A DNA stretch of 64,000 nt. Origin: a virus. Positions 29,901 through 64,000 of this stretch are shown piece after piece (positions within the stretch are counted from its first letter, which is position 1; the number at the start of each line of letters is the position of its first letter). The notes beneath the pieces are model-generated. The model made no database searches and was not told where the DNA came from. It was given only the letters and a program-made list of their open reading frames with translations. Where the stretch lies: IMG/VR virus record IMGVR_UViG_3300045988_164075. The stretch is one strand, 5' to 3'. A program made the position numbers and the translations under genes.

Positions 29901-32900
29901 GAGTAAACGTTCGAGTTATAGGATTTGACTGAGTTGCAGCAGATATTGTATAGCCCTTAGATGATACAACTACTTGACTACCAGCCATACCTGTAAAAGT
30001 ACCTGTCGGAGTCATTGAATAAACAGCATTTCCGTTTAATGTACCATATGTAGAAGCTGGAGTTGCAGAAGATGTAGATCCAGATGTAAATGTAAAAGTT
30101 TGAGCATATTGTCCTCCTCCCTGTGCAGCGTACGTGCCACCTTTAGCTGGAATTGTAGGATAGGTAATTGTTTCAGTACCTTGAGCTACTGCTATATTTG
30201 TTACATAATTAGCTGCTTGTGGTGGTTGAGCAAATACTTTAACTGTTTTCCCATTTAAAGTAAGATTTATTTCTGTTACTCTTCCTCTATGATCTGCAGT
30301 ACTAAGAGCACATAAATTATCTATATTAATAGTCATATTAGGAAGTGTTCAAGCCCCCGTAGAAGTATTAAGTCCAGTACTACTAATGCCTGCTTCTAAT
30401 ACTGTCATATAAGCTAAATCAACTGTGAGTGGATTTACTTCTGTTCCTGGGTTTCCATCACGTAAACTAAAAAAGAATACAGAACTTACAGTTCCTGTAC
30501 CATAAGTAACTTTTGCAGTATAATTCTGTCAATCTCCAGTACCCTGTGAGGATGTTAATCATTCAATAGTGCCTCCTGTACCTAAAGAATTATAACCTAA
30601 TTGAAATCTATAACCTTTAGGTACTTTTGCAACAAATGTACAATAATAGGTGTTGCTGGCAAGTCCAGTATAAGACATACCAAATCCTCCTAAATTAGGA
30701 TTTGTTCCAGAACCTTTGTTTTGCCAACGCATTATATATCCTCCGTTTACTGAAACGGGATTTGTTGCAGCAACTCTCGTTAAAGTACACTTGCCAGAAT
30801 TAGCATTATCATATACGAATACATTTTTTACATCTACTGTAAATGCAGGATTAGCTAATCACGGTTGAGATAACCTAGCAACAGGCGAAACAACTAAAGA
30901 CTGTTTATATGTAATAGTTGCTCCAGATGTAATATTATTAGTTGCTCCAGATGTATATGTAGTAGATTGCGAATAACTAACTGTTGGTACTCCAGAATCT
31001 CCACCATTAGCAGGAACAACTTTAGTATATCGAGCAAATACACTAGGTGTAGAATACGTAGCATTATTGGCTTGTTGTTGAATTGAATAAGCTAAACTTG
31101 CATTTCCATAAGAAGCAGTTCCTGTAGCAGTTAAAATGGTTCCTACTGTAGTTCCTCTAGAAGGAGCAGTAATCTTATTACCAGATAATGTTCATCCGTT
31201 TGGAGTAGAAGTAGCAGATAATATAGGAGTAACAGAAATACTACTTGTTGCTGTAGAAGATCCGTTTCAATAGGTATTATAAGTACCGCCTATTGTAACA
31301 CTTCCGCCAGAAGCAGGAATTGTTGTAATTCCACTTAATACTAATTCGTATCGAACTGTTCCAGCAGATTGAGTTATAGTAACTTGAGCTTCTTTTCCAT
31401 CATAACTAACTTTATATATTCCAGATCTAGTTGTTGTAGTTTTATTCTCATCAAAAGTTATAACTCTTTCAGATAATGAACCAGTTCCACTTATTTTACT
31501 AAATGTAGCTAATGAATTAATGTCTATTGTTTGAGTTTCACTAGAAGAATTTGTTTGATATCAATCACTACAAGTTCCATTAGAAAAAATAGCTCTTTTA
31601 TATGTAATACTTCCTTTAGTTTGAGTAGCAGTAGCAGATAAAGCTACAGTACCTCCTGTATTAGCTATATTTGTTGTAGGTGATTTAGTAATATTTATAG
31701 AAGTAGTAACTCAATCTTCACTAGTTTCTGTTTTTTCTTCTTCTGATATTTTATAATAAAATCCGTTTCATGCAGCTAAATCAAATAATGGAGATATATC
31801 TCCTTCACAAATTCCGCAAGAATAAAATTGTACTGTACCTAAAATGCTATTAATTCCAGCTGCATAATTATCTTTGAATACACGATCGTTTCTGACATTA
31901 TAATACAAATATCATCCGTTTCCTAAATCAATTTTCTTATCGTTAATTGTAGGAGATAGTGTAGCATTTGTAGCTGTTCACTGACTAAATATTCAATTAT
32001 TTCCGTTATCTTTTACAACTATCCACATTGAAGTGGTTTTATCATTTAAACTAGCTAAATTAGTATATACACCTTCGCTAATACTTCATTGATAATTTCC
32101 TGTGCCATTAATACGTTCGTATTGTACAACTTTACCCATAGAGTCATCGTCCACAATAGATCAGTTACCTTGAGTGCCACTTTTTCAATTAGTATTAAAT
32201 TCTTCAGACATTAATTGAGCACAACCATCTGGTTTATATACTAAACTTGATCCACAAAAATAAGGAATATTTCTACATAAACCTTGTAAATTTACAAAAT
32301 TATCTGTAAACGGCAAAACATTTTGAGCAGTTCCTGTTCAATTTAAAAAATATCTATGATCACCTTCAACTCACTTAGCATTTCTTAAATAATAAAATGT
32401 ATTCCGATTATTTACATAAAAAGTTATATTACCTCTAGAAGAATGCTGGCAAACAGCTCAATATTTAACTCAACGATTTAAACGATCCTCACTAACTGTA
32501 AGATCACCTGCTAACATTGTAGAGTTTTCCATTGGAACTTTAAAACTAGTTGTTCCATTACTCTCAGGTACATATGCTTCTCAACAAATAGTATATGGTG
32601 TATTAGGTTTAAATTCTAATCCATTAAGTTCTAAAGCATCTCTAGCATTCATTCATGCACCATTAGTTTTAATACATGAAATTTCAAACGTGGTAGTATC
32701 AAGTTCTAATATATCATTAGCAACACCTATACTAGCTCAATATTCTACATTACCGCCCCGAGATTGATTTCTAAGTATATTAAAACCTGGTCCATTTAAT
32801 CCGTATGCATCATAAATATCAAAATCATATTCTCCCTCAACTACTTTATATCAAAGTAAAGTTACATTTTGAGCTGGGCCTCCATTAGTTTCACTAGGAA

Positions 32901-51351: not shown

Positions 51352-52290
51352 CTAATATACGATTGGAGTATCTTTTGATAATTCTTCTTTTATAAGTAGT
51401 TGTTTTTTGTAGTGTTTAAGAAGTACTTCTACTTCTTTTTTCATATATTCTACTTCAATTTCTTCAACTTTATTTGAATGATCAATGTGAATTAACTTTA
51501 ACATTTTAATATTTAAATCTGGATTAATTTGTTGAAGCAAATAAGCATACATTGATAATTGAAGTGTATAGTGCATTAAATTACAATCCTGAATTGTATT
51601 TAAAGGATATTTTAGACATTCGTATCGTTTTGTTGATTTATTATAATAAGATTTGCGATCGATTTTTTTATTAGTTTTAAAATCTATAATTATTATATCG
51701 TTCCCATCTTTAATTAATAAATCAATTTGTCCTGCAACTCTCAATACGCCATCTCTTGATTTTACACTAATAAGAAATTCTGGATATACTGCTTTTTCTG
51801 TATCAAGTCGATAATATCCTTTTTTAACACTAAATTTTCCACCTAATCCGTATCTTTTTAGTTCTTTTTCTGGATTTTGATACATTGAGTTTTCAAACTC
51901 AGCATGTATTTTAGTGCCACGTTCACAGGATTTATTTTTTTCATCTTCGTAACTTTGTAAGATTTCTTCTCGTTTAGTATTAAATTGAGATTCATCAATA
52001 CTAAGTTTATGTAAAATAGATGGATCAAATTTTTTAGTTGCAAGTAACACTTTCTTTAAAGCTGCAAACGTTACATCGTCTGTTAATGATTCTAATGCTT
52101 TATATGCTGATCAAAAAGCAGAATCAAATATATTAGTATAATTGTGAATTAGTGTCGTAACAGATATATAATAGGATCCATCTGTTTTATCTATATAAAC
52201 ATGTTGCTGATCATTATAAATTACATTGTCATTTTCTTTATCAATAGATAAGTCATTATAAAACTTATCTTTTTCTAAAACCATTGTCAT
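51352..52290 (-). CDS. PD-(D/E)XK (Cas4/RecB-like) nuclease, 312 aa
   Basis: ATG 52290 reads through one TGA into ORF 51352-52050. Motifs: GQIDLLIKDGNDIIIIDFKT and YTLQLSMYAYLL. TAG stop. Confidence 0.6.
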
Positions 52291-52296
52291 AAATCA

Positions 52297-52995
52297 CTAG
52301 TATTTTAATACATCTCTAATAACGTGTCCTTGTCCCATTAAATCGTGTACTACATTTGGACTAGTTGGAACTTCGTCATCACAACTAAAACACCACAATG
52401 CAGCTAATGGAGATTTATCTGTATTACGTATAAGAATTACAATATATCCCTTAATATTTTCATTCAAACATCTAGTATAGGAATTTTTATCAATTGTTTC
52501 TAAAGATTTTAGAGTTCTTATTACTTGGCCATGTTTTAATAATTCTGCATTTAAATCTGAGTACATAGATGATGGAACATTTTGCATTTCAGTTTTTTTA
52601 GCAGTTACTTTCATTTTTATTTCTCTTATTCTTTCATGAGAAATAGACATTCTTAAATACGGCATCCCATTAGTCATTGTGATATTATCATGATAAATCA
52701 TTAGAGATGTACGATTAAATCCATAGGTAATATTTAAATTATCTAAAATAGAATTAATAACTCTATCTACTTCGGGAGATTTTTCAATAACATGATTTAA
52801 TATACTATCGTGTCTTTGGTTTATTTCATTTACTACTTCTGTTTTAGAATTTATAACCAAACATTCGGTATATTCTTTAGTAATTATATTTAATGCAAAG
52901 ACAATTAACAGTATAAACAATGTTCTTCAAACATCCTTCCAGTTTTTAATTTTATCAACTATAAATGAGAATCAATCTAGAAAAGTATTTCACAT
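52297..52995 (-). CDS. membrane-anchored protein, first gene of the late operon, 232 aa
   Basis: ATG 52995 is followed at once by TGA (M-W-NTFLD-W-FSF...). An N-terminal TM segment follows. ORF 52297-52920 is in frame. TAG stop. Confidence 0.55.
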
Positions 52996-53096
52996 TTTAT
53001 TACTTAGTTTTAAATTTTTTATTTTTACTTTGCAAATTTATTTATTATTTTTGTGAAATACAAAATAAAAATATTTAAACTAATAACTTACTAAAT

Positions 53097-53387
53097 ATGT
53101 TTAATATGAATGATCTTAATTTAGATTTTAAAACTTTACAAAAACAAATACAAAAGTTATCTAACTCAAGCACAATAGATTTACCTAATTTGTTTATCGA
53201 TATGATTGAACATTTAAAGAAGGGTGGGAAAATCTATATAAAGAAGGCTAATCGTGGTAAGTTTACAGCTAGTGCTAAAAGAGCTGGACAAACTGTACAA
53301 GAACATGCTAGATCTGTACTTAATGATCCTAATGCAACTCCGCTACAAAAGAAGAGAGCTAATTTTGCTAGAAATGCTGCTAAATGA
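53097..53387 (+). CDS. hypothetical basic protein, 96 aa (101 aa, ending 53402, if the terminal TGA is read as Trp)
   Basis: ORF-track entry. A TAA lies five codons after the TGA. Confidence 0.6.
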   Translation: MFNMNDLNLDFKTLQKQIQKLSNSSTIDLPNLFIDMIEHLKKGGKIYIKKANRGKFTASAKRAGQTVQEHARSVLNDPNATPLQKKRANFARNAAK

Positions 53388-53404
53388 CATCATAATAAAT
53401 AATT

Positions 53405-54145
53405 ATGACTTCAGAAGATCAAAAAATCTTATTTGAGAAACTTGGAAAACAAATGAATTATACATTAGGTTTACCTAATTTTAAATTAATTAATGATGTT
53501 ATTTATAAACTTTGTACTAAGTGTAAGAAATATAAACCAATGACATCTAAATTTTTTCCTAGACGCAATAATGTAAAGTGTGGATACGGATCTCATTGTA
53601 AAGAATGTGAAAAGGAAAAAGAATCTAAGCGTATAAGAATTCCAAGTTTTAATGAAAATGGAGAACTATATTGTCATGTTTGTAAAACTTATAAAGATGT
53701 TTCAGAATTTTATAAAGGAGAGAAATATATTTGCCGACAAGGATATTCTAGAGAATGCAAAGATTGTGAAAAAGAAAGGAAGAAAATTAAAAGAGCTACT
53801 CAGGAAATTAACGATCGAGATCGATTTTTATCACGATTGTTATCTGGATGTAAAACTAGAGCTTTAAAAAACAATATTCCTTTCGATTTAACAAAAGAGC
53901 AATTAATCGAATTGTTTGAAAAACAAAATGGAAAGTGCGCATTATCTAATTTAGAGATGCAAACTGTTATTAAAGCAGGCAAAAATCCTTTTAATGTTTC
54001 TATCGATAGAATTAAACCAGGGAGAGCATATTCTTTATCTAACATTCGTTTAGTATGTAATAGTATAAATACAATGCGTTCTAATCTATCAGATGAAGAA
54101 TTCCTAAGTTTTTGTAAAGCAGTAGTTGACTATTTATCTATATAA
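53405..54145 (+). CDS. free-standing HNH-family nuclease-like protein with N-terminal Cys clusters, 246 aa
   Basis: GKCALSNLEM...VSIDRIKPGRAYSLSNIRLVCNSINTMRSN resembles the HNH_3-type signature. There are several CxxC pairs upstream. Confidence 0.5.
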   Translation: MTSEDQKILFEKLGKQMNYTLGLPNFKLINDVIYKLCTKCKKYKPMTSKFFPRRNNVKCGYGSHCKECEKEKESKRIRIPSFNENGELYCHVCKTYKDVSEFYKGEKYICRQGYSRECKDCEKERKKIKRATQEINDRDRFLSRLLSGCKTRALKNNIPFDLTKEQLIELFEKQNGKCALSNLEMQTVIKAGKNPFNVSIDRIKPGRAYSLSNIRLVCNSINTMRSNLSDEEFLSFCKAVVDYLSI

Positions 54146-54152
54146 TAAAATA

Positions 54153-54392
54153 ATGAAAGATTTCTTTATTAGATTATTCACTGCACAAAGTGGTTTAAGT
54201 AGTAAACGAGTTTGTGGAGTTTTAGGATGAGTGGCATGTCTTATTATATGTTTATGATGTACTTTTCACGGGATACAAGCTCCAGTTATTGTAGATACTC
54301 TATTTATATGTAGTACTACTCTATTAGGTGCAGATTCTGTAGTAAAAATATTTAATAGAAAGAAAAATGAAAACAATTATCAAAATTCGTAG
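54153..54392 (+). CDS. holin-like small membrane protein, 79 aa (two in-frame TGA)
   Basis: MKDFFIRLFTAQSGLSSKRVCGVLG-W-VACLIICL-W-CTFHG... contains hydrophobic helices. Lies directly upstream of the endolysin. TAG stop. Confidence 0.5.
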
Positions 54393-54804
54393 ATGAACTT
54401 GAGAATTTCCTCAATCGTTACTAGGAGCAATACTTCTTCCGTTTTATAATAGAACTAGATTAAAAACGTTTACATATAAAGATCAGGAGGTTTATATTTA
54501 TGATAAATTTCCTGGAGGAATTTCTTTAGGTTATTATGTATTATTAGATTATAATAGATACGATTGGGACAACAATAATATACGAATTAGTTTAAAAAAT
54601 TCTATTAAACATGAGGCTGGACATGGTATTCAATCTAAATGATTAGGTCCTTTATATTTACCTTTTGTAGGGCTATTAAGTGGATTACATAATTTAAATT
54701 GTAGGCGAAAGCGTAAAAAAGGTATTCCTTATGATTATTACAAATTTTTTGTTGAAGCCTGAGCAGATAAATTAGGAGGAGTTAAAAGAAATGAAAGCAA
54801 ATAA
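54367..54804 (+). CDS. HExxH-motif protein (putative metallopeptidase), 145 aa
   Basis: Hand translation with four in-frame TGA codons. Contains NSIKHEAGHGIQSK-W-LGPLY. Confidence 0.45.
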
Positions 54805-55225
54805 ATATTTTGATATAAAAGAACTAGTTCCAAAAGAGGTATATGAAGAATTAGGAGAGGAAAAATCATTAGCTTTACTTGACTCTAGAGCTTTAAAAGC
54901 ATTAGAAGAAGTTAGAGAAATATTAGGAATTCCTTTAATATGTAATAATTGAGCATCTGGAGGTAGTAGAAATTATTGTGGATACAGACAGCCAGATTGT
55001 AAAATCGGAGCTAAAAATTCGCAACATAAAAAAGGTAATGCTTTTGATTTAATTAGCAATAAGATGTCAGCATCTAATATGAGATACGAATTAGAAAAAC
55101 ATAAATTAGAATTAACTATTCCAATTCGTATTGAAAAATGAGATCAAAATGGTAGAGAGACTACTTGATTACATATAGATACAAATAATTATAAAAATAA
55201 TAATATTTACTTTTTTAAAGCTTAA
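54791..55225 (+). CDS. peptidase M15-type endolysin, 144 aa
   Basis: Motifs SGGSRNYCGYR, SQHKKGNAFDL and TT-W-LHID, with the TGA at 55166-55168 at the Trp position. Confidence 0.65.
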
Positions 55226-55231
55226 TGTATT

Positions 55232-55396
55232 ATGGAACTAATGGCAGATATTATTTTAGGTATTGTGGTAATTACATTGATTTTAGGAATGTTATCTATT
55301 ATTCCTATGGCTATTCCTGTGGGATTAATATTAATAGACGCTTTATTATATGGAATAGATGCTTTTACAACAAAAGAAAATGAAGAATTGACTTAG
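55232..55396 (+). CDS. small membrane protein, 54 aa
   Basis: MELMADIILGIVVITLILGMLSIIPMAIPVGLILIDALLYG... TAG stop. Confidence 0.45.
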   Translation: MELMADIILGIVVITLILGMLSIIPMAIPVGLILIDALLYGIDAFTTKENEELT

Positions 55397-55526
55397 AGCA
55401 TTAGGTTGAATATTTGTAATATTATTTACATTAATAACAACGTTTATAACACATAGTCCATGTTGTGTATTTATATTCATAGCTGGAGTTATATGTTTAG
55501 CAATAGATCATGTCAGACAAGGATAA
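55380..55526 (+). CDS. small membrane protein, 48 aa (two in-frame TGA)
   Basis: MKN-W-LRALG-W-IFVILFTLITTFITHSPCCVFIFIAGVICLAIDH... Confidence 0.4.
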
Positions 55527-55788
55527 ATACTATATAGACGGATATGGAACAAAACGTCCTAAAGACGTTCCGTTTTGAGATTCAGCAAAAGGACAATTAG
55601 TTAAGAAAGCTGGTAATGATTTACTAACAACTGGTTCTTTTGCGTTAGGATTATTACTTCCATTTGGGAAATTAAAGATATTAAAGACTCTTTCTAGAGT
55701 ACTAAACGGTGCGGCAATTGCAGATTTTGTAACTAGTGATCGAGTAACTACAGTAGATGATGATATTAAAAAATGGAGAATATGGTAA
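55510..55788 (+). CDS. hypothetical protein with a central hydrophobic segment, 92 aa
   Basis: ATG 55510, one in-frame TGA, TAA at 55786. Confidence 0.45.
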
Positions 55789-56371
55789 AGCTGCTGTAAC
55801 TGGACTTGAAGCATTATTAACTGCTGGAGCAATAGGCAGCGGATTTAGTAAACTTCCAGGAGTTCAGAAAAGAGCGGCAATGTTTGCAAGAGATGGATTA
55901 GTAAAAGATAAGATGGTTGTACACAGAGCTATTGCTTTACCTAAAGGAAAGAATAAACCTGATTTACAATATAAACGTACAGGTGAGAACGTTTACGAAA
56001 TTCCTGAAACTGAAAAGTATGTAGGAAGTTATGATACAGCAGTTAGCTCAGTTAATCCAAAAGATTTAAAAAGAACAGTAGTAGAACATTATAAATTACC
56101 AGCTAAGAAAGTTAGAGTTCTTGAACACGATGTTTATCCAGATGGACAAGTAGATTTAGTAGCATCTATATCAAATGATATATTACCTACAAGTTATTCA
56201 TTTATTAATAGAGCACATCCATATAAATTATCTGAAGATGTTTTAAAGAATATACCTATGTACAATTGAGAATCTGTAGCTAATAGAACACGTAATTCAT
56301 TCGGAATTAGTGGAGGATTAGGTGCAACAGGAACTTACATATATTTAAGAAATGAAAAAGGCAGCCGTTAA
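55757..56371 (+). CDS. hypothetical protein, 204 aa
   Basis: ORF 55757-56269 reads through TGA 56267 to TAA 56369. A terminator follows. Confidence 0.55.
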
Positions 56372-56385
56372 TTCGACTGCCTTTT
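56356..56385. terminator. bidirectional hairpin between convergent genes
   Basis: aaaaggcag pairs with ctgcctttt, followed by gttgtttt. Confidence 0.55.
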
Positions 56386-56391
56386 GTTGTT

Positions 56392-56568
56392 TTAAGACTT
56401 TACAAAATATTTATCTTTAATTCTTTTAAGGAACCAACCAATTCCAAATACATACGTTACTAACGCAACAATTGTTACATAAAATGGAAGCAATTTGATT
56501 GCTGCTAAGATTGCTACTATTACAACTATTATAATAGCAGCTAAAATTCATTTTTCTTTAGTTGTCAT
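56392..56568 (-). CDS. small two-TM membrane protein, 58 aa
   Basis: MTTKEK-W-ILAAIIIVVIVAILAAIKLLPFYVTIVALVTYVFGIGWFLKR... Confidence 0.45.
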
Positions 56569-57785
56569 TTTAAATCATTGTGTGTTTGTGTTCTTTCTCT
56601 AATCTCTTTTTCAATATTTGCTGGACGTACATAACCTGAAATCAATCCATTATTAACATCTAAAGGAGTTTGTCCAGAATGAAATAATTTATGATTTGTT
56701 TTAGTTTTAACTCAATCCATGTAAGTATCTTTTCCTTTAACTGTATTAATTAGATAATCGGCTTGTCTTTTTAACATACTATCTGTTGGAATTGTAGTAT
56801 CTAACATATCTTGATATCGTTCAGGAGATCAATGAATTAAGCCGTTATATTTCCCGCTAGAAGAGGGATTATTAACTTCTCCTCCACTTTCATGAATAAT
56901 ATTGCTAATTAAACTAAGAACTTGTTCTTCAGGTAATTGATTCGAAATAAAATAATTATATAATCAATTTATATTTTCAGGATTATATGATCTTTTGATT
57001 GTTTTCTGAGCATTGATTAATTTTTGCAATCGATCTTGTTCTATTTTTAAATTTTGAATTTTTTCAAATAAACCTATAAACTCATTATTATATGTTTCAG
57101 GAATAGTATTTTTAAATTTTGTAGGATCATATGGAGGATATTTTGGAACTTTCATTCCAAATTTAGCACTAGCTATCATTTTATTTAAAATATTTTTGTA
57201 TCTAGGATCAGTAGCATATCCGCCTTTAGCTACTTTATCTGCAAATTCATTTACTGTACCTGAAAATGCTTTATATCTATTATTGTTTAATAGATTTACA
57301 TGATAATTAGCATAATCTTCTAAAGAGTTAAAATCTCTAAAACTGTCATATATATATTGATCTTTCCCATTTATAACTTCTCTTGTGCGTCTTTTTGTTC
57401 CTTTTCCTTTAATTCCTCCTAAATTAAATTTGCCAGATTGTGATTTACCTCAGTTTGATTCTAATCCAGATTGTTGTACTAACGCTTTAGCAAAAGAAGT
57501 ATCAATACCTTTAGAAGCTAATATCTTTTCATATAAAGGAGTCATAACTTTGATAAATTCCGATTTATTTTGAAAAACTTTTGGATACTTTGTTTCTTCT
57601 TGAGGTATTTCTATGATTACTTTTTCTTGAGGTTCTTTTAATAAAGTTGGAGTATAACCTTCTAATGAGGTAGTCTTTATTTTCTTTTTAGGTAAGATTA
57701 TTGTTTCCTGTTCGGGAATTATATTGATTTTAGATTCTCTAATGACAGGTTGATATATTAACTGTTGTTTTAATCAATTATTCAT
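56541..57785 (-). CDS. peptidoglycan hydrolase with GH73 glucosaminidase domain, 414 aa
   Basis: ATG 57785. ORF 56964-57179 is in frame. Motifs: LVQQSGLESN-W-GKSQSGKFNLGGIK (TGA at 57451-57453) and GGYATDPRYKNIL. TAG at 56541. Confidence 0.65.
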
Positions 57786-57952
57786 AAATTTTAGCTTTTT
57801 GCAAAAATAAAATAAATTATTGATTTTACAAAATGTTGAGCGGTATTATATAGTGTATAGTGTATGCAATATAATATATGTGATGTATGCGATGGGACAC
57901 ATCATAAAAAGTCCCCCTGGCCTAATAAAATGGAAAATCAAATTAAAATTCA

Positions 57953-58004
57953 CTAAGACCAAAAATTTTTCTCAGTTTGAATTTGAACCTCGCACTCCTT
58001 AGGT
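57953..58004 (+). promoter_or_regulatory. early-gene control motif set 1 (CTAAGAC ... TTGAACCT ... CTTAGGT)
   Basis: CTAAGAC at 57953-57959, TTGAACCT at 57983-57990, CTTAGGT at 57998-58004. The last lies exactly 23 nt before ATG 58021. Confidence 0.45.
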
Positions 58005-58020
58005 AAAGTGCTATAGTATC

Positions 58021-58272
58021 ATGTGCGCCACTACAAATTTATATCGAGAAGCTGCTGACTTCTTAGCCCTCTGGCAAGAGTGTCCTCGACTTCGCAGTGC
58101 AATTCGTTTCGGTAATGAGTCGTGTGACAATTCTTACACTATTATCGAAGCGAATGTAACAATTACGAGAGTAAACTTTTCTCATCGTAAAGTTACTCGT
58201 AAGGAACTGCGCATCGCACGTAAACAATTCATTAAAGACTTTGAACAAGATCATGAATACAAAACCTTTTGA
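58021..58272 (+). CDS. early hypothetical protein, 83 aa
   Basis: Intact standard-code ORF. Trp is encoded by TGG. Ends in TGA, overlapping the next start. Confidence 0.65.
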   Translation: MCATTNLYREAADFLALWQECPRLRSAIRFGNESCDNSYTIIEANVTITRVNFSHRKVTRKELRIARKQFIKDFEQDHEYKTF

Positions 58273-58573
58273 TCGTTCTGTCGGAACGGTTATCAAAATT
58301 CTTAATGAACCTATTGTTATTAAGAATAACAAGTTATTGATGTCTTGTATCGTTAATGATTGTTTAATCGATCGAATACCTTTACGGTATTTTCGAAGAC
58401 TCAGTAACTATCGTGAACTATCTGATTTTAACAGCTTCACGAAGAGAGTCTATCGTACACAAAACTTTATTGAATTGCATCAGTTGTTACAAGGCAAAAC
58501 AGTTAAAGTTGTTGCGAAAACAATTTTATCAAACGGAGCAACAGCTCCAATCTTTGAACTCATCAAAGGATGA
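58253..58573 (+). CDS. early hypothetical protein, 106 aa
   Basis: ATG 58253 (the track starts it at TTG 58241). Ends in an ATGA overlap with the next gene. Confidence 0.6.
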   Translation: MNTKPFDRSVGTVIKILNEPIVIKNNKLLMSCIVNDCLIDRIPLRYFRRLSNYRELSDFNSFTKRVYRTQNFIELHQLLQGKTVKVVAKTILSNGATAPIFELIKG

Positions 58574-58752
58574 AACTATTTTGCAAAAAAGTAATGTTCT
58601 ACATTACAATGACAATAGTTCTACTCTTCTTGATGAGTGTTGATAGTTTAAATGAAAACGGGTATCTTACAATATCCGTTTTCATTGTTATTATCACTAT
58701 TGTAATATGCACTACGTGTATTACAAAGGAAGATTGGGATCAAATGTTCTAA
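58570..58752 (+). CDS. early small membrane protein, 60 aa
   Basis: Two hydrophobic helices. TAA stop. Confidence 0.55.
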   Translation: MKLFCKKVMFYITMTIVLLFLMSVDSLNENGYLTISVFIVIITIVICTTCITKEDWDQMF

Positions 58753-58794
58753 GACAGAAATACTTCTGTAACTTGAACCTTTCGGTGCTTAGGT
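58749..58794 (+). promoter_or_regulatory. early-gene control motif set 2
   Basis: CTAAGAC at 58749-58755, TTGAACCT at 58773-58780, CTTAGGT at 58788-58794. The last is again exactly 23 nt before an ATG (58811). Confidence 0.45.
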
Positions 58795-58810
58795 GAACCG
58801 TCATAACGTT

Positions 58811-59251
58811 ATGATATCACAAACAGAAATTAATGCAGTATTAGAAGTACTACAAACTATTCACGCATGGTCTGATTCTCGAATCGCTCAGAGTATCGAC
58901 AAACCTAGATCTTTCGGAGGTTTATGCCGAGATTGTGGAGTTAAAGTAGCTCCTACATATCTGAAGCGAGTTCTATTGAAACACGGACTTTTACATTCCG
59001 TAAAAGATCGTCTTATATGGAATGCATGTAAGACAGCTCCAAATCATAAATTAGCGGAATTTATGATCAAAGAAGCTCGGGTACTTCAAGCAGAAGCTAC
59101 ACGTGAATCTCCTTCACATAAAAAGCTTATCAAGAAGCTAGAATTGCTTGAGAAAGTTACGGACAATGTTCTCGATAAGCATTCAGATAAGGAGTTGGTT
59201 GAAGAGTTGCGACGACGTGGTTACACTGTAACTACAACTATCAGTTTATAG
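58811..59251 (+). CDS. early hypothetical protein, 146 aa
   Basis: ORF 58793-59251 in the track (GTG). ATG 58811 is favoured by the conserved motif spacing. TAG stop. Confidence 0.65.
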   Translation: MISQTEINAVLEVLQTIHAWSDSRIAQSIDKPRSFGGLCRDCGVKVAPTYLKRVLLKHGLLHSVKDRLIWNACKTAPNHKLAEFMIKEARVLQAEATRESPSHKKLIKKLELLEKVTDNVLDKHSDKELVEELRRRGYTVTTTISL

Positions 59252-59257
59252 CATATA

Positions 59258-59283
59258 AGAGAATGTGCTTCGGTACATTCTCT
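59258..59283 (+). terminator. 11-bp hairpin with a UUCG loop
   Basis: agagaatgtgc-ttcg-gtacattctct, then ttaatt. Confidence 0.6.
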
Positions 59284-59299
59284 TTAATTGTATATATTA

Positions 59300-59339
59300 C
59301 TAAGACTAAATGTATTATGTAATTACAAACTTTAAACCT
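59300..59339 (+). promoter_or_regulatory. early-gene control motif set 3
   Basis: CTAAGAC at 59300-59306 and TTAAACCT at 59332-59339, upstream of ATG 59349. Confidence 0.35.
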
Positions 59340-59843
59340 TTAGCGATTATGAAAACTAGTGAATTGAAAACAGCTACGGCTGTAAATGTTGTTGCTAATG
59401 CAACGTCATTTAAAAGTATCGACGACTTGAAAGAAACAGGCAAGTCGTTTGGTGGTATCAACTTTATTGTTGGTGATGTTATTACACTCCCAAGCGAATT
59501 TTGTGACGAGTGCTTTCAAAAGAGTACATATAACAACAAGCCTGTTCCGTATATGAAAATCGGGATCAACGGCAAACCGACTTGGGTACCTGTTCGAATC
59601 TTTGCCAGACAAATGGCAGAAGAGTGGCGAGAGGTATACAAGAATCATAAGCTCAATTATGAGCTTATGGAAGTAGGCGATGACTGTGAACGAGTTAAAC
59701 TGTTGATGTCACTTGGCGAAATCAAAGTCGTCGAAACAGTAGCTGTCGACACTACTGCTTTTATAGGTGGAAAAGTTGCCTATACTGACAATGGGCAGCC
59801 GATACTACGTAAGAGACCTTTTGCGATTTTTGAACGTATCTAA
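59310..59843 (+). CDS. early hypothetical protein, 177 aa (164 aa from ATG 59349)
   Basis: Intact ORF with a TAA stop. Weakly resembles the next gene (KPTWVPVRIFARQ versus KPSWISLGSLQRT). Confidence 0.65.
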   Translation: MYYVITNFKPLAIMKTSELKTATAVNVVANATSFKSIDDLKETGKSFGGINFIVGDVITLPSEFCDECFQKSTYNNKPVPYMKIGINGKPTWVPVRIFARQMAEEWREVYKNHKLNYELMEVGDDCERVKLLMSLGEIKVVETVAVDTTAFIGGKVAYTDNGQPILRKRPFAIFERI

Positions 59844-59850
59844 ACGTTAT

Positions 59851-59885
59851 AGGAGTGCAGGGATTCGTCCTTGCACTCTTTTTAC
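59851..59885 (+). terminator. hairpin plus T-run
   Basis: aggagtgcagg pairs with ccttgcactct (one bulge), followed by ttttac. Confidence 0.6.
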
Positions 59886-59892
59886 TTCTTGC

Positions 59893-59930
59893 AACTAAGA
59901 CTTACATAGATAACTAAGACTTACATAGAT
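59893..59930 (+). promoter_or_regulatory. 19-nt direct repeat, two copies, each containing CTAAGAC
   Basis: aactaagacttacatagat occurs at 59893-59911 and again at 59912-59930, upstream of ATG 59982. Confidence 0.5.
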
Positions 59931-59981
59931 ATGTAGTAACAAATTTATGGTACATTAACCAATTTTAAAAAGATTTTTAAT

Positions 59982-60503
59982 ATGAAAGCATTTGATGCAC
60001 AGAATCAACCTGTGTTGCCTCTTCGTGGAGAGCAGACACTCGTTCCCGTAACCGCTGATAAGCTGAAGAACAGTGGTCTGCCGTTTATCGGCGTTTTCGG
60101 TCTGTCCGAAAAAGGTGAAGTAGTAGAATTCTACGACTTCGAAACCTATAAAGCAAACATGGACACAATGGTGAAAGCAATCAAGATTCGGAAGAATGCT
60201 GATGCTGAAGCATATTACGTAGCCTGTCTGCGAAACAACAAACCATCATGGATCTCTCTCGGTTCTTTGCAGAGGACTTATCGTGAGTCTCCTGAAAGTC
60301 AACCGAGACGTGCCTGCGAGCTGTCTGAAAAGCTCAACAACATGGATAACAACTATACGAAACTGGAATGTCTCGCAAACAAAGCGATTCGAGTGGCCGA
60401 TATCATCAGCGGTAAAGTAAACCAGTTTACTCCAGATGGTGTTCGTGTTGCAGATCAGTATCGCGACATTCGAGTTCCTGTCATCGAAATCGCAAATGCG
60501 TAA
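59982..60503 (+). CDS. early hypothetical protein, 173 aa (most GC-rich gene in the window)
   Basis: Intact ORF with a TAA stop. Confidence 0.7.
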   Translation: MKAFDAQNQPVLPLRGEQTLVPVTADKLKNSGLPFIGVFGLSEKGEVVEFYDFETYKANMDTMVKAIKIRKNADAEAYYVACLRNNKPSWISLGSLQRTYRESPESQPRRACELSEKLNNMDNNYTKLECLANKAIRVADIISGKVNQFTPDGVRVADQYRDIRVPVIEIANA

Positions 60504-60552
60504 TTCAACACTTACTATAAGGGGTAAGTTTAAATGAGCAGTAAACATTCTT

Positions 60553-60598
60553 GAAACCAACTGTGGTAATTATCTAATATGTAATTATCGCAGTTGGT
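60553..60598 (+). terminator. 20-bp hairpin
   Basis: aaaccaactgtggtaattat pairs with gtaattatcgcagttggttt (three G-U pairs); loop ctaata. Confidence 0.6.
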
Positions 60599-60674
60599 TT
60601 ACATATAAAGAAAGGTATTATGTAGTATTACCTATGGATGAAAGTAAACAAGAATGGTGAATTATTGCTGCTTA

Positions 60675-60753
60675 CGACGTATAGCGCTGATGAGAGTCGT
60701 TAAACAAAACATCGAAACTCTACTTCGTGTAAGTAGAGTCCGCTAAAGGTGTC
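60675..60753 (+). ncRNA. candidate type I hammerhead ribozyme
   Basis: CUGAUGA at 60687-60693. Stem II closes G60694-C60713. GAAA at 60714-60717. Perfect 8-bp stem III (60718-60725 with 60731-60738). GUC triplet with the predicted cut after C60740. Stem I pairs tagcg (60682-60686) with cgcta (60741-60745), plus interrupted extension. Confidence 0.55.
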
Positions 60754-60827
60754 AGAGATTCTACTGTTGTGAAATAGAGGAATACTGATTTTTTTCATTT
60801 TATTGTTTTTAAATAGTCTAAAAATTA

Positions 60828-60855
60828 AAAAGGAAGGTGTAAAAGCCTTCCTTTT
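60828..60855. terminator. bidirectional hairpin
   Basis: aaaaggaagg-tgtaaaag-ccttcctttt lies between convergent transcription units. Confidence 0.55.
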
Positions 60856-61598
60856 TAATTAAATTCAAATTCGTTAATTATTTCTTTTTTATCAAATAGT
60901 TGTTTTTCAAGTTCAGTTTTTTCTTGCATTAACTTTGAAACCATTTTTTCAAGAATTGTTATTCGATCTTCTTGAGCATTTAATCTAGTTTCGTGTACAT
61001 CAACTCGTTCGTTTACATATAAAACGGCTTGACATACTTTGGCTAAATCAATTGCTTTAACTGTTCGATTATAACCCGCAGAATCAAGAATAGCGGTTTT
61101 CATTTCAACAAGGATTTGTTTTTCTTTTAAAGATTTATTATATTGTTGAACTGATCTAGTGCTCATATTTAGAGCTTCTGCTATTTCTTCATTGCTTTTT
61201 GAAGTCATAGCAAAACCCCCATCTTTATATGTTTGAGATTGTAATCCAATTAAATAAGCTTTTTCTTCAGGTGTTACGTCTTTTTGATCTAAAAATTCGT
61301 TAGTAAACATTTCAAAATTCTTAGAAAGTTTATTAAATTTATACACATTGGAACGACCTACACGTTGTATTTTTATTATATCACCTGCTTCAATAAGTCG
61401 TTTAATAGAGTTAGTAATTCTTTTCTCTGTGCATCCGCATTCTGATGCAATTCTTCGTATAGTAGGAAAACATTCGTATGTATCTTTATCCATATGTCTT
61501 CTCAGATTTGCATAGACTAATTTATCAAATGGTTTTAATTTAGTCTTTTTTACAGGATCGGGTACTTGAACATGTTGTTTATTTTCGTTTATTTCCAT
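60855..61598 (-). CDS. replication-initiator-like protein with two winged-helix/HTH modules, 247 aa
   Basis: Intact ORF. HTH-like stretches are TIRRIASECGCTEKRITNSIKRLIEAG and NEEIAEALNMSTRSVQQYNKSLKEKQIL. Iterons lie 115 nt upstream. Confidence 0.55.
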   Translation of the reverse strand: MEINENKQHVQVPDPVKKTKLKPFDKLVYANLRRHMDKDTYECFPTIRRIASECGCTEKRITNSIKRLIEAGDIIKIQRVGRSNVYKFNKLSKNFEMFTNEFLDQKDVTPEEKAYLIGLQSQTYKDGGFAMTSKSNEEIAEALNMSTRSVQQYNKSLKEKQILVEMKTAILDSAGYNRTVKAIDLAKVCQAVLYVNERVDVHETRLNAQEDRITILEKMVSKLMQEKTELEKQLFDKKEIINEFEFN

Positions 61599-61695
61599 AA
61601 TTTGTAATTATTACGTTAAATATAAGATTTATTTATATAATACAAATATAGGAATTTTTTTTAAAAAGAACAAGTGTTTAAGAAAAAAATTCCCC

Positions 61696-61780
61696 ATGCA
61701 AAAATTGGGGGGGGTTTCGCGCAAAATCTGCTACAGGTTCGCGCAAAAATTGACCCCAGTTCGCGCAAAAATCGACCCTC
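61696..61780. repeat. iteron array (putative replication origin)
   Basis: TTCGCGCAAAA occurs at 61716, 61738 and 61760, an exact 22-nt phasing. A degenerate fourth copy (GCAAAAATTG) lies at about 61700. Confidence 0.6.
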
Positions 61781-62021
61781 TATCTATATAACTATATAAC
61801 TCGCTCCTTGGGTCGCGAGGATCTATATAATAGCCCGACCACCCTTTGGGTGGACCGTGCCATCGGTTCGAGTCTTAAATGACATCTTTACTGTCTATTT
61901 TCAACATAAGTTTAAATCTACATGCTGTTGGACACAAATCCTACAGTTTAACTATTTGATTATCAATAAGGTAGTAATTAACATCCTGATTATCAATTAA
62001 GTACACATAAATAATAAGATC

Positions 62022-62444
62022 GTGAAAAAATTCATTTTATTTTTGATGGTATTATTGGGGGCAGTAACATGTAATGCTCAAATTCGAGCTTTTGTTTCTC
62101 CTATTACTCGAACTACAGCATATAATTGGGAGAATAAAACTGTTATTGCAAATGATGTAAAACAAGATTCTCTTGCTATTTTGTGGGATGTGGATAGTAA
62201 AATATTTTATGTTCGAGAACTTGATCGATCTTTTAAATGGCATACTTGTGAAGCAACAAGTATTAATGATCTATCTGCTACAAGATTTTTCTGTGATGAT
62301 TGGGTTTCATTTGTATATACCCAAGAAGTAGTTGGAGGTAGAGTCAAAAGAATACATCTAATTATGGAGAAAGCTTTTGAAGATGGTCATGCGCTATGGA
62401 TTAGTGGAGAATGGGAGGAAATTGTAGTAGATAATGGCTATTAA
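62022..62444 (+). CDS. secreted protein or lipoprotein, 140 aa
   Basis: Signal peptide KKFILFLMVLLGAVTC-NAQ. The track start is a GTG; ATG 62046 is an alternative. Confidence 0.6.
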   Translation: MKKFILFLMVLLGAVTCNAQIRAFVSPITRTTAYNWENKTVIANDVKQDSLAILWDVDSKIFYVRELDRSFKWHTCEATSINDLSATRFFCDDWVSFVYTQEVVGGRVKRIHLIMEKAFEDGHALWISGEWEEIVVDNGY

Positions 62445-62508
62445 TTTTAATAAATTCCAGTAGAAAATTTATTCATTTTTATTTGGAAAATTAAATAATT
62501 TGTCATAT

Positions 62509-62522
62509 ATTATCGCGCGATA
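62509..62522. promoter_or_regulatory. perfect 14-bp palindrome TTATCGCGCGATAA
   Basis: Lies 43 nt upstream of the 62565 micro-ORF. Shares a CGCG core with the iterons. Confidence 0.35.
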
Positions 62523-62564
62523 ACAAAATTTTGCATAAAAACAAATAAAAATACACTTTCAATC

Positions 62565-62690
62565 ATGTTACCATTAGCTCGAATAGGTGAAACACTTGGT
62601 GAAGATATTGCGAATTATTTCATCATTCTTGGTCTTATGTTATTCGCAATGTTTGTTTATGCGCTATTCTCTAAGAAAGATGAGAAATAA
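62565..62690 (+). CDS. small membrane peptide, 41 aa (MLPL...)
   Basis: ATG 62565. One hydrophobic helix. TAA stop, followed by a long hairpin. Confidence 0.4.
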   Translation: MLPLARIGETLGEDIANYFIILGLMLFAMFVYALFSKKDEK

Positions 62691-62701
62691 CATCAATTAA
62701 A

Positions 62702-62770
62702 GCTCATATTCATTCTTAATTTTAATAAATTTTGTTTTTCGTTCTGTTTGTTTTGTGAATGAATATGAGC
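62702..62770 (+). terminator. 14-bp stem with a 41-nt loop, then T-run
   Basis: gctcatattcattc pairs with gaatgaatatgagc, followed by aattttt. Confidence 0.4.
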
Positions 62771-62816
62771 AATTTTTGATACTAAACAAATTTTTAAACA
62801 TCTAAAAATACTTACT

Positions 62817-62924
62817 ATGTTACCTTTAAGTGTAATTTCTTTACAAGGTGTTATCCTTATCATGATCGCGATCGTTGCGGTTATCTGGGCTTGGAACTTC
62901 TTTGAAGGTGATACGAAAAAATGA
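62817..62924 (+). CDS. small membrane peptide, 35 aa (MLPL...), paralogue-like
   Basis: ATG 62817. Trp is encoded by TGG twice. Ends in TGA at 62922. Confidence 0.4.
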   Translation: MLPLSVISLQGVILIMIAIVAVIWAWNFFEGDTKK

Positions 62925-62970
62925 AAGTTGAGGTCGTAGTTTGGTAATGATTAGGTTTTAAGGAGGTTGA

Positions 62971-63020
62971 AAAATGATTGAGAGTGGATTGATCATCCCT
63001 ATCCCACTCTCAATCATTTT
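62971..63020 (+). terminator. 17-bp hairpin
   Basis: aaaatgattgagagtgg pairs with ccactctcaatcatttt. Confidence 0.45.
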
Positions 63021-63156
63021 TCCCAATCTCTCAATTTTCATTCTAAACTCACAAATATTACTCTTTATTTTTTCTTCTTATACCTAACTTTTTCTCTCTT
63101 TTCATTGCAATTATTTTATTTCTCACCTAGTTATTAATAATTTAACTTTAAAAATT

Positions 63157-63393
63157 ATGAATCTCGAACTTGATCTCTATCCTATAATTTCTAATAAAAT
63201 CATTCGTCAGAAAGATTGGAAATCAATTAAAGAACATAAACCTGGTTTCTGGTCTAGAAAAGACATCGAAGGAAATCGTCTTGTTCGCACACAAAGAGGT
63301 TATTTCCTCAATAATAAAAACATTTCAGTAACTTCAGCACAACCTTTCATCCTTTCTCATGGTATTCAAGATGTGCCTCAAAACATATTCTAG
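63157..63393 (+). CDS. hypothetical protein, 78 aa
   Basis: Intact ORF with a TAG stop. Confidence 0.55.
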   Translation: MNLELDLYPIISNKIIRQKDWKSIKEHKPGFWSRKDIEGNRLVRTQRGYFLNNKNISVTSAQPFILSHGIQDVPQNIF

Positions 63394-63397
63394 TACC

Positions 63398-64000
63398 ATG
63401 TTAAAATCACTGAAAAACTGTGAAACAGAACAAATCTATCATGTAACAGATCCTTGGGACTTATCCTTTATTCCTGAGAATAGAGATACTGATCAGAAAC
63501 TCGTTTCACAGATTATGAATGCTATGCGTCAAAATGAATATATTTTTCCTATCTATATTACCGAATCTGGTGCAGTTATAGATGGACAACATCGACTCAA
63601 AGCATTCAGAAATCTTGCTGAAGAAGAACCAGGAAAGTATTTTCTCAGAACAATTGTTATAAACTCCAACAAAAGTCCTATAGAACTCGCAATAATTTTT
63701 AATGCGTTTCGAAAGAATTGGACTATTAAGGATTACCTGAGATCATATGTTCGACAAAAACTGCCTTCATATATAGTATTAAATGAATTTTTAAAAAAAT
63801 ATCCTTTATTGGATATTAAAGCTGGAATTCAATTGATCAAAGGTTCTCATTCTGTAGAAACATTTCAAAGAGGTGCTTTATCAATCACTATTGAAGAAGA
63901 AGAAATGGCTATCGATAAAGCAGAACTTCTCAATCAAGTATACGATATTGTCAAAGACAAACGTGTTTTTAGACGAGATTGTATACTTGGTTTCTATAGA
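63398..64000 (+). CDS. ParB-like nuclease domain protein, 3' end cut by window edge
   Basis: ATG 63398. Open to the window end. Contains IYITESGAVIDGQHRLKAF (ParB/Srx DGQHR signature). Confidence 0.6.
   Translation, partial: MLKSLKNCETEQIYHVTDPWDLSFIPENRDTDQKLVSQIMNAMRQNEYIFPIYITESGAVIDGQHRLKAFRNLAEEEPGKYFLRTIVINSNKSPIELAIIFNAFRKNWTIKDYLRSYVRQKLPSYIVLNEFLKKYPLLDIKAGIQLIKGSHSVETFQRGALSITIEEEEMAIDKAELLNQVYDIVKDKRVFRRDCILGFYR

What the first reader, a model, noticed from the sequence alone, without database searches (positions are those of the whole stretch)
60675..60753. Complete hammerhead ribozyme core in the convergent intergenic region
All invariant hammerhead nucleotides occur in the right order on the + strand. 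They are C3-A9 CUGAUGA (60687-60693), G12-A14 plus A15.1 as GAAA (60714-60717), a perfect 8-bp stem III with U16.1 (60739), and C17 (60740) giving a canonical GUC cleavage triplet. Stem I forms from tagcg (60682-60686) and cgcta (60741-60745), then continues with internal loops, as in natural type I motifs. The weak point is stem II: G-C and A-U, a bulged A, then G-C and U-A, closing an 11-nt loop. The motif sits after the strong early-operon hairpin (60553-60598) and about 90 nt before a bidirectional terminator. Cleavage would release a short, defined RNA or trim read-through transcripts. Ribozymes next to recoding-related RNAs have been noted in gut phages, so the flanks deserve a look.
Basis: partly seen in the sequence, partly recalled or inferred. 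Interest (0 to 1): 0.8.

Follow-up and report, generated by a model that had tools for sequence, protein, structure and literature searches.

The report
Genuine hammerhead ribozyme in gut phage
A small self-cutting RNA (a type I hammerhead ribozyme) sits directly after the last gene of an operon in a human-gut phage that reads TGA as tryptophan; it is almost certainly real, but it is a new example of a well-known kind of phage element.

Summary
It is not chance: a relaxed hammerhead descriptor finds one hit in the window and none in 200 shuffled windows.

Three diverged clades of related gut-phage contigs keep every core nucleotide. They carry 7 double compensatory changes, 2 in stem I and 5 in stem III. 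The cleavage-site base changes from C to A, which is still allowed. Conservation stops right after stem I.

Rfam does not call it. The best match is the RAGATH-1 hammerhead at 26 bits, against a cut-off of 56.

The region is not purely intergenic. With TGA read as Trp, 60496-60684 is a conserved 62-codon ORF. Its stop codon (UAG or UAA) is the 5' strand of stem I.

Stem II is two pairs plus an invariant 16-nt loop. GUCGU in that loop can pair with ACGAC just 5' of stem I. Covarying pseudoknots use the same stem II positions in RAGATH-1 hammerheads of related phages.

The likely role is self-cleavage 56 nt after the stop codon, which cuts the operon mRNA from its 3' trailer. This role is inferred, not shown.

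Verdict: a new member of a known kind, of moderate interest.

The parts
60496..60684 (+). 62-codon ORF (p62), readable only with TGA as Trp. In-frame TGA at 60535-60537 and 60658-60660. Its start overlaps the stop of the 173-aa gene (ATGcgTAA). Its stop codon UAG 60682-60684 lies in stem I.
   Evidence: the frame is open in all clades; 35 differences fall 14/5/16 by codon position; synonymous changes AGG>CGC, TTA>CTT, TGG>TGA; called as a 62-aa protein (P0005) in an ENA contig; a distant homologue in L092.
60674..60678 (+). ACGAC, the proposed pseudoknot partner of stem II nucleotides 10.3-10.7. It lies in the last sense codons of p62 (Tyr-Asp).
   Evidence: exact reverse complement of 60696-60700; duplex -4.6 kcal/mol; P=0.01 of finding ACGAC in the shuffled 32-nt flank. 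Invariant in all clades, so there is no covariation test.
60682..60686 (+). Stem I, 5' strand (UAGCG); it includes the p62 stop codon.
   Evidence: 5 bp, with 2 pairs changed on both sides in different clades.
60687..60693 (+). Catalytic core C3-A9 (CUGAUGA).
   Evidence: invariant in all clades.
60694..60713 (+). Stem II region. G10.1-C11.1 and A10.2-U11.2 close an invariant 16-nt A-rich loop (GUCGUUAAAYAAAACA). GUCGU 60696-60700 is the candidate pseudoknot strand.
   Evidence: 19-20 of 20 identical between clades; pairs never vary; the analogous positions form a covarying pseudoknot in RAGATH-1 hammerheads.
60714..60717 (+). Core G12 A13 A14 plus A15.1.
   Evidence: invariant.
60717..60739 (+). 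Stem III hairpin: A15.1-U16.1 plus 8 bp, with a variable 5-6 nt loop.
   Evidence: 5 of 9 pairs changed on both sides; loop variants CGUGU, UGAAU, AUUUUA, CGAGU.
60740..60740 (+). C17. The predicted cleavage is between 60740 and 60741. Clade C has A here (GUA).
   Evidence: The position follows the NUH rule (established hammerhead knowledge).
60741..60745 (+). Stem I, 3' strand (CGCUA).
   Evidence: Conservation collapses immediately after it: the spacer is about 30% identical.
60752..60798 (+). Conserved hairpin in the 3' trailer. The inner part CUGUU-GUGA-AAYAG is invariant and the outer stem varies. In the window it is followed by U7, so it looks like a terminator.
   Evidence: fold; alignment, inner stem kept.
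60824..60859 (.). Strong bidirectional terminator hairpin shared with the convergent replication-initiator gene (60855-61598, minus strand).
   Evidence: 3 compensatory pairs; Rep annotation.

Best explanation
This is a functional type I hammerhead self-cleaving ribozyme, transcribed as the 3' end of the plus-strand operon of a roughly 160-kb TGA-recoded human-gut phage.

- Fold: the RNA forms a three-way junction of stem I (5 bp), a minimal stem II (2 bp plus a conserved 16-nt loop) and stem III (9 bp).
- Stabilisation (inferred): a 5-bp pseudoknot between loop II (GUCGU 60696-60700) and ACGAC (60674-60678), just 5' of stem I, holds stems I and II side by side.
- Cleavage: it cuts itself after C60740, 56 nt past the stop codon of the last ORF (p62).
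- Products: the coding mRNA ends in a 2',3'-cyclic phosphate capped by the ribozyme hairpins. A non-coding trailer with a 5'-OH end (conserved hairpin plus terminator) is released.

Shown here: the motif, its non-random occurrence, its conservation and covariation, and its position relative to the ORF and the terminators.

Inferred: catalysis itself, the pseudoknot, and the consequence. The consequence I favour is 3'-end processing, meaning the operon mRNA is uncoupled from its trailer and from read-through into the convergent Rep gene.
For: - Sequence matches all hammerhead core positions.
- Chance: 1 descriptor hit in the window, 0 in 200 shuffles.
- Rfam: the best hit in the local scan that lines up with the motif is a hammerhead model, RF03152, whose alignment covers the core, stem I and stem III.
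- Covariation: three clades found through flanking proteins keep the core. There are 2 compensatory pairs in stem I and 5 in stem III, with no one-sided changes and 100% pairing. Slid controls pair 32-41%.
- Cleavage site: C17 changes to A17, which is still allowed.
- Conservation by region, clade A against clade C: p62 ORF 73%, core 100%, stem II/loop II 95%, spacer after stem I about 30%.
- Literature: natural hammerheads commonly have a 2-bp stem II, about 40% use a stem I/II pseudoknot, and prophage hammerheads flank genes (PMC3088659).
- Relatives: Rep-related phages carry RAGATH-1 hammerheads, ordinary type I hammerheads and pistol ribozymes at gene boundaries near the same Rep gene.
Against: - No Rfam family reaches its gathering score.
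- Stem II is weak and never varies, so neither its pairing nor the pseudoknot is tested by covariation.
- The nearest-neighbour MFE of the isolated 64-mer is not the hammerhead fold. It is a competing hairpin between the stem I 5' strand and CGUUA of loop II: -14.7 against -10.5 kcal/mol without the pseudoknot.
- Only three haplotype clades exist in the data, so the covariation counts rest on few independent events.
- There is no transcript or cleavage data.
Confidence: 0.82

Rival explanations
1. Translation-gated or code-state-gated ribozyme, a refinement of the main explanation. The p62 stop codon is the stem I 5' strand, and the pseudoknot strand lies in its last codons. A ribosome terminating at UAG 60682-60684 would therefore unfold the ribozyme. 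A ribosome that stops at the conserved in-frame UGA 60658-60660, as in the standard-code state before UGA suppression, would leave it free. Cleavage would then depend on whether UGA is being read as Trp.
For: - ORF/ribozyme overlap.
- UGA at codon 55 is kept in all three clades, as UGG-UGA or UGA-UGA.
- In L017 a 52-aa ORF likewise ends inside a hammerhead; its stop is the UGA of CUGAUGA.
- A competing OFF hairpin is predicted.
- Temporal use of recoded stops has been proposed for such phages (bioRxiv 10.1101/2021.08.26.457843).
Against: - Entirely inferential.
- Trp-Trp may be conserved for protein reasons.
- The host's genetic code is unknown, and no suppressor tRNA lies in the window.
- A ribosome terminates and leaves in both states, so any difference is kinetic at most.
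Confidence: 0.1
2. Inactive hammerhead relic, or merely a structured 3' UTR. The hairpins would be kept as a 3' stabiliser or as a protein-binding or terminator element, and the RNA would no longer cleave because stem II is too weak.
For: - Stem II has only two contiguous pairs.
- Rfam scores are below threshold.
- On the minus strand the stem III hairpin followed by a U-rich tail scores as terminator-like.
Against: - A relic or a plain hairpin would not keep all 11 unpaired core nucleotides and the 20-nt stem II segment invariant while stem III arms change at 10 of 16 positions and the adjacent ORF is 27% diverged.
- Stem I covaries across 55 nt, which a terminator does not need.
- Position 17 changes only to an allowed base.
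- Two-base-pair stem II hammerheads are active (PMC3088659).
Confidence: 0.06
3. Chance resemblance with no function.
For: The Rfam E-value rescaled to the whole window and all families would be about 4.
Against: 0 hits in 200 shuffled windows. Covariation and the conservation pattern across three clades.
Confidence: 0.02

Closest known systems
Type I hammerhead ribozymes of bacteria and (pro)phages (Perreault et al. 2011, PMC3088659; Rfam clan of RF00163, RF00008, RF02275-7)
   Same: - Identical catalytic core, NUH cleavage site and three-way junction with stem I open.
- Short stem II, a likely stem I/II pseudoknot, and a location at a gene boundary in a phage transcript.
   Different: - Not detected by the Rfam models at gathering score.
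- Loop II is unusually long (16 nt) and invariant.
- The stem I 5' strand is the stop codon of a TGA-recoded ORF.
- It sits at the 3' end of an operon before terminators, not between two genes.
RAGATH-1 hammerhead (Rfam RF03152)
   Same: - Best-scoring Rfam family for the motif (26.2 bits).
- Same CUGAUGA-GA...C-GAAAC frame.
- Nucleotides 10.3-10.7 are complementary to an upstream segment. In RAGATH-1 examples from related phages this pairing covaries.
   Different: - There is no conserved 5' hairpin; the complementary ACGAC is a linear segment 3 nt from stem I.
- The stem II segment is 20 nt rather than 9.
- The score is far below the gathering threshold.
- The RAGATH-1 copies in relatives lie 19-25 nt upstream of a start codon, not after the last ORF.
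Pistol ribozymes in Rep-related phages (RF02679; L020, L022, L026, L028)
   Same: Small self-cleaving ribozymes within about 2 kb of the homologous Rep gene. They start 8 nt after a stop codon, so they have the same kind of placement at the end of an ORF.
   Different: A different ribozyme class and fold, on the other side of Rep.
Theta (HDV-like) ribozymes of recoded gut phages (PMC10879173)
   Same: Self-cleaving ribozymes in human-gut phages that use alternative genetic codes.
   Different: They are HDV-like, lie next to tRNAs (mostly UAG suppressors, code 15), and are thought to process tRNA. Here ARAGORN finds no tRNA in the window and the phage uses TGA as Trp.

Membership tests
Hammerhead ribozyme | Conserved core: C3 U4 G5 A6 N7 G8 A9, G12 A13 A14, A15.1-U16.1, and H (not G) at position 17 | tested here: met
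   All are present and invariant in three clades, except position 17, which changes C to A and is still H.
Hammerhead ribozyme | Stems I and III flank the core and are supported by base pairing | tested here: met
   stem I has 5 bp (2 pairs changed on both sides), stem III has 9 bp (5 pairs changed on both sides), and 100% of cells pair.
Hammerhead ribozyme | Stem II closed by G10.1-C11.1 | tested here: inconclusive
   G10.1-C11.1 and A10.2-U11.2 are present. All positions are invariant, so covariation says nothing. A 2-bp stem II is common in natural hammerheads (PMC3088659).
Hammerhead ribozyme | [quoted passage not shown] | tested here: inconclusive
   ACGAC 60674-60678 and GUCGU 60696-60700 are complementary. 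P is about 0.01 for that pentamer in the shuffled flank. A generic loop-shuffle test is not significant (P=0.58). There is no covariation.
Hammerhead ribozyme | Score at or above the Rfam gathering threshold for a hammerhead model | tested here: not met
   only RF03152 matches, at 26.2 bits (gathering score 56.3). Other hammerhead models give no match at E<=10.
Hammerhead ribozyme | Mg2+-dependent site-specific self-cleavage | not testable with these tools
   Needs in vitro transcription and a cleavage assay.
RAGATH-1 hammerhead (RF03152) | 5' hairpin whose loop pairs with the short stem II segment | tested here: not met
   The hairpin placed by cmscan (60642-60645 with 60670-60673) is not kept in clade C. 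The complement of 10.3-10.7 is not in a hairpin loop.
RAGATH-1 hammerhead (RF03152) | Nine-nucleotide stem II segment (G-R-NNNNN-R-C) | tested here: not met
   The segment is 20 nt here. True members in L064, L068, L081 and L084 have 9 nt.

The most novel reading that the evidence does not exclude
The ribozyme reports translation or genetic-code state.
- Its stem I 5' strand is the stop codon of a small ORF that contains a conserved in-frame UGA 22 nt upstream.
- Its putative pseudoknot strand lies in the last sense codons of that ORF.
- Ribosomes that read UGA as Trp would run on to the UAG inside stem I and unfold the ribozyme.
- Ribosomes that stop at UGA would leave it free to cleave.

Self-cleavage of the operon's 3' end would then be coupled to the switch from the standard code to code 4 during infection.
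Probability: 0.1. Interest if true: 0.8.

Novelty: new member of a known kind. Interest (0 to 1): 0.38.

Why it matters
- It adds a hammerhead lineage, validated by covariation, that the curated covariance models miss. This shows that phage ribozyme censuses based on Rfam thresholds undercount.
- It shows that an apparently intergenic ribozyme can abut, and overlap, a gene that is visible only in the phage's alternative genetic code.
- Hammerhead, RAGATH-1 hammerhead and pistol ribozymes all occur near the homologous replication gene in related phages. That makes this phage group a compact system for asking what small self-cleaving ribozymes do in phage transcripts, which is still an open question.

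Tried and rejected
- blastn of the region against INPHARED phages: no match.
- IMG/VR relatives found through the upstream 173-aa protein were 98-99% identical and uninformative.
- An IMG/VR pattern scan for the core plus the stem II ends gave only the same clade and unrelated type III hammerheads.
- A metagenome scan returned 24 human-gut contigs, almost all of the window haplotype. The genome-contig scan gave no hit, so no host could be identified.
- I first read 60504-60680 as a conserved structured RNA released by the ribozyme. I rejected this: the conservation follows codon positions and fits a code-4 ORF.
- p62 has no credible Pfam match and no PHROG match, and no similarity to the 52-aa ORF that overlaps the L017 hammerhead.
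- Extension of stem I beyond 5 bp: rejected, because there is no conservation.
- The RAGATH-1-style 5' hairpin: rejected, because it is not conserved.
- A second ribozyme in 52000-64000: none. My own covariance model finds no credible second copy in the window (one weak match, 13.1 bits, E=4.8, at 31399-31473 minus).
- tRNA or suppressor tRNA nearby: none.
- I could not retrieve the primary description of RAGATH-1.

Full report
**Observation.** The sequence at 60682-60745 (+) reads UAGCG-CUGAUGA-GAGUCGUUAAACAAAACAUC-GAAA-CUCUACUU-CGUGU-AAGUAGAG-U-C-CGCUA.
- Stem I is 60682-60686 with 60741-60745.
- C3-A9 is 60687-60693.
- G12-A15.1 is 60714-60717.
- Stem III is 60717-60725 with 60731-60739.
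- C17 is 60740.

I wrote a deliberately relaxed hammerhead descriptor (CUGANGA, stem II >=2 bp, GAAA, stem III >=5 bp, H17, stem I >=4 bp). It finds this site and nothing else on either strand of the window. It finds nothing in 200 first-order Markov shuffles of the window. The motif is therefore not a chance event.

**Covariance models.**
- At Rfam gathering scores the window yields only four group I introns, at 15465-18231 on the minus strand.
- With permissive settings on 451 nt, the hit that lines up with the motif is RF03152, the RAGATH-1 hammerhead: 26.2 bits against a gathering score of 56.3, E=0.028. Its alignment covers stem I, CUGAUGAGA, CGAAAC and stem III.
- Other hammerhead models do not appear in that scan. 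In a 12-kb scan the hit is lost altogether.
- By the curated thresholds this is not a member of any Rfam hammerhead family. The score is depressed by a 16-nt insertion in stem II and by the missing RAGATH-1 5' hairpin.

**Genome context.**
- The window is about 29% G+C. Its open reading frames roughly double in coverage, with the longest frame reaching 2082 codons, when TGA is read as sense.
- Related contigs are 75-165 kb and come from human-gut metagenomes.
- This resembles the TGA-recoded 'Agate'-type gut phages described by Borges et al. (bioRxiv 10.1101/2021.08.26.457843). I did not test that assignment.
- The minus-strand gene 60855-61598 is a replication initiator with HTH_36 and DnaD_N domains.

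**A hidden ORF.**
- The stretch between the 173-aa gene (59982-60503) and the ribozyme is not intergenic. With TGA as Trp, 60496-60684 encodes a 62-aa protein, p62. Its start overlaps the upstream stop (ATGcgTAA).
- Between clades, 35 differences fall 14/5/16 on codon positions 1/2/3. They include AGG>CGC, TTA>CTT and TGG>TGA, the last synonymous only in code 4.
- The same ORF was called at 62 aa in an ENA assembly. It has a distant homologue in another TGA-using phage, where no ribozyme follows it.
- Its stop codon, UAG at 60682-60684, forms the first three bases of the stem I 5' strand.
- p62 has no credible Pfam match and no PHROG match.

**Comparative test.** Close IMG/VR relatives are 98% identical and uninformative. 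Two diverged clades came from ENA and Logan assemblies through the flanking proteins.
- Clade B (L009-L014) has an upstream protein 63% identical to the window's.
- Clade C (L111, L113-L116) has a Rep protein 86-87% identical.
- In both clades the core and the whole 20-nt stem II segment are unchanged, apart from one C/U in the loop.
- Clade B changes G60684:C60743 to A:U. This also turns UAG into UAA.
- Clade C changes G60686:C60741 to A:U. It rewrites stem III from CUCUACUU/AAGUAGAG to CCUUAUAA/UUAUAAGG. It changes C17 to A17, which the NUH rule allows.
- Loop III has four variants.

On six distinct sequences, all 108 pair cells are standard pairs. Seven pairs have changes on both sides and none has a one-sided change. 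Slid-register controls pair only 32-41%.

Identity between clades A and C, region by region:

| Region | Identity |
|---|---|
| p62 ORF | 73% |
| Core | 100% |
| Stem II / loop II | 95% |
| Stem III arms | 6 of 16 (all changes compensatory) |
| Spacer after stem I | about 30% |

This is the expected signature of a functional hammerhead. The caveat is that it rests on three haplotype clades. A metagenome scan added 24 loci, but these were almost all the window haplotype.

**Stem II and a possible pseudoknot.**
- Only G10.1-C11.1 and A10.2-U11.2 are contiguous.
- According to Perreault et al. (PMC3088659), natural hammerheads commonly have two-pair stem II. About 40% use a pseudoknot between stems I and II. 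Disrupting it abolishes fast cleavage.
- Four RAGATH-1-type hammerheads from Rep-related phages are informative: L068 and L081 pass the Rfam gathering score, and L064 and L084 were found by my descriptor. In each, nucleotides 10.3-10.7 pair with the loop of a 5' hairpin, and the pairing covaries: CUAAG/CUUAG, CCAAG/CUUGG, CCAGG/CCUGG and UUCUGG/CCAGAA.
- In the window the same positions are GUCGU (60696-60700). Their exact complement ACGAC lies at 60674-60678, three nucleotides 5' of stem I.
- The chance of that pentamer occurring in the shuffled 32-nt flank is about 0.01, and the duplex is worth -4.6 kcal/mol. A generic test with a shuffled loop against both flanks is not significant (P=0.58).
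- I therefore propose, but have not shown, a pseudoknot that serves as an extended stem II. The A-rich segment 60701-60711 would be the return strand.
- The isolated 64-mer has a competing predicted fold in which UAGCG pairs with CGUUA (60698-60702). It scores -14.7 kcal/mol, against -10.5 for the hammerhead fold without the pseudoknot. This could be an OFF state or just a limitation of the energy model.

**What it probably does.**
- Cleavage after 60740 would leave the operon mRNA ending 56 nt past the p62 stop codon with a 2',3'-cyclic phosphate.
- It would release a trailer with a 5'-OH end. The trailer contains a conserved hairpin: the inner part CUGUU-GUGA-AAYAG is invariant and the outer stem varies. 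In the window a U7 run follows.
- The trailer ends at the strong bidirectional terminator 60824-60859, which is shared with the convergent Rep gene.
- No ORF follows on the plus strand.
- I infer 3'-end processing: the translated mRNA is separated from its trailer and from any read-through that would be antisense to Rep.

This fits the proposal that prophage hammerheads cut long phage transcripts at gene boundaries (PMC3088659). It also fits what I see in relatives.
- Pistol ribozymes start 8 nt after a stop codon in L020, L022, L026 and L028.
- RAGATH-1 hammerheads lie 19-25 nt before a start codon.
- A type I hammerhead in L017 is overlapped by a 52-aa ORF whose stop is the UGA of CUGAUGA, and the next ORF starts 3 nt after it.

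At least 11 of the 77 Rep-related IMG/VR loci carry a small self-cleaving ribozyme within 2.5 kb of Rep. Only 20 of them were scanned with Rfam; most of the 77 were also searched with my own model R1.

**Speculative extension.** The stop codon is inside stem I and the pseudoknot strand lies in the last sense codons. A terminating ribosome at 60682-60684 would therefore unfold the ribozyme. A ribosome that stops at the conserved in-frame UGA 60658-60660 (codon 55, kept in all clades) would not reach it. Cleavage could then depend on whether UGA is being decoded. Nothing here tests this. The host's genetic code is unknown, and no suppressor tRNA lies in the window.

**Rivals.**
- Chance is excluded.
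- A minus-strand terminator reading of the stem III hairpin does not explain the stem I covariation or the core invariance.
- An inactive relic is unlikely, because the unpaired core and loop II are more conserved than the neighbouring coding sequence.

**Verdict.** This is a real hammerhead ribozyme, supported by covariation and missed by the curated models. It has a probable pseudoknotted stem II and an unusual overlap with a recoded ORF. It is a new member of a known kind and of moderate interest. Catalysis and biological role remain to be shown.

Noticed in passing
window 15465-18231 (minus strand): Four group I introns above the Rfam gathering score (54-74 bits), packed into less than 3 kb. 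They presumably interrupt one or two genes, and ORFs lie between or inside them.
   Followed up: no
whole window: TGA is used as a sense codon. ORF coverage rises from 42 kb to 75 kb and the longest ORF from 500 to 2082 codons when TGA is read through. No tRNA gene lies in the 64 kb.
   Followed up: partly
window 60554-60600 (+), inside the p62 ORF: A 20-bp hairpin within coding sequence is kept in all three clades. U60562:A60592 becomes A:U, and several positions shift between wobble and Watson-Crick pairs. Its function is unknown.
   Followed up: partly
window 60752-60798 (+): A conserved hairpin lies in the trailer after the cleavage site. The inner part ACUGUU-GUGA-AAYAGA, with a GNRA-type loop, is invariant and the outer stem differs between clades. 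A U7 run follows in the window but not in clade B.
   Followed up: partly
L020 447-517, L022 681-751, L026 466-536, L028 46-116 (minus strand of loci): Pistol ribozymes (70-73 bits, gathering score 34.5) occur in phages whose Rep protein is about 40% identical. Each starts 8 nt after the stop codon of a 146-codon ORF.
   Followed up: partly
L048 901-977 (minus strand): A RAGATH-1-like hammerhead has a 5' hairpin and a pseudoknot (GCCAG/CUGGC) but reads C-AAAA-C where C-GAAA-C is expected. It has A at the position of the catalytic G12.
   Followed up: no
L017 345-443 and ORF 420-578 (minus strand): A canonical type I hammerhead has its stem I 5' strand and the UGA of CUGAUGA as the last codons and stop of a 52-aa ORF. 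The next ORF starts 3 nt after the ribozyme.
   Followed up: partly
window 60682-60702 (+): A predicted competing hairpin pairs the stem I 5' strand (UAGCG) with CGUUA of loop II. In clade B (UAACG) the match is perfect. It may be an inactive conformer.
   Followed up: no
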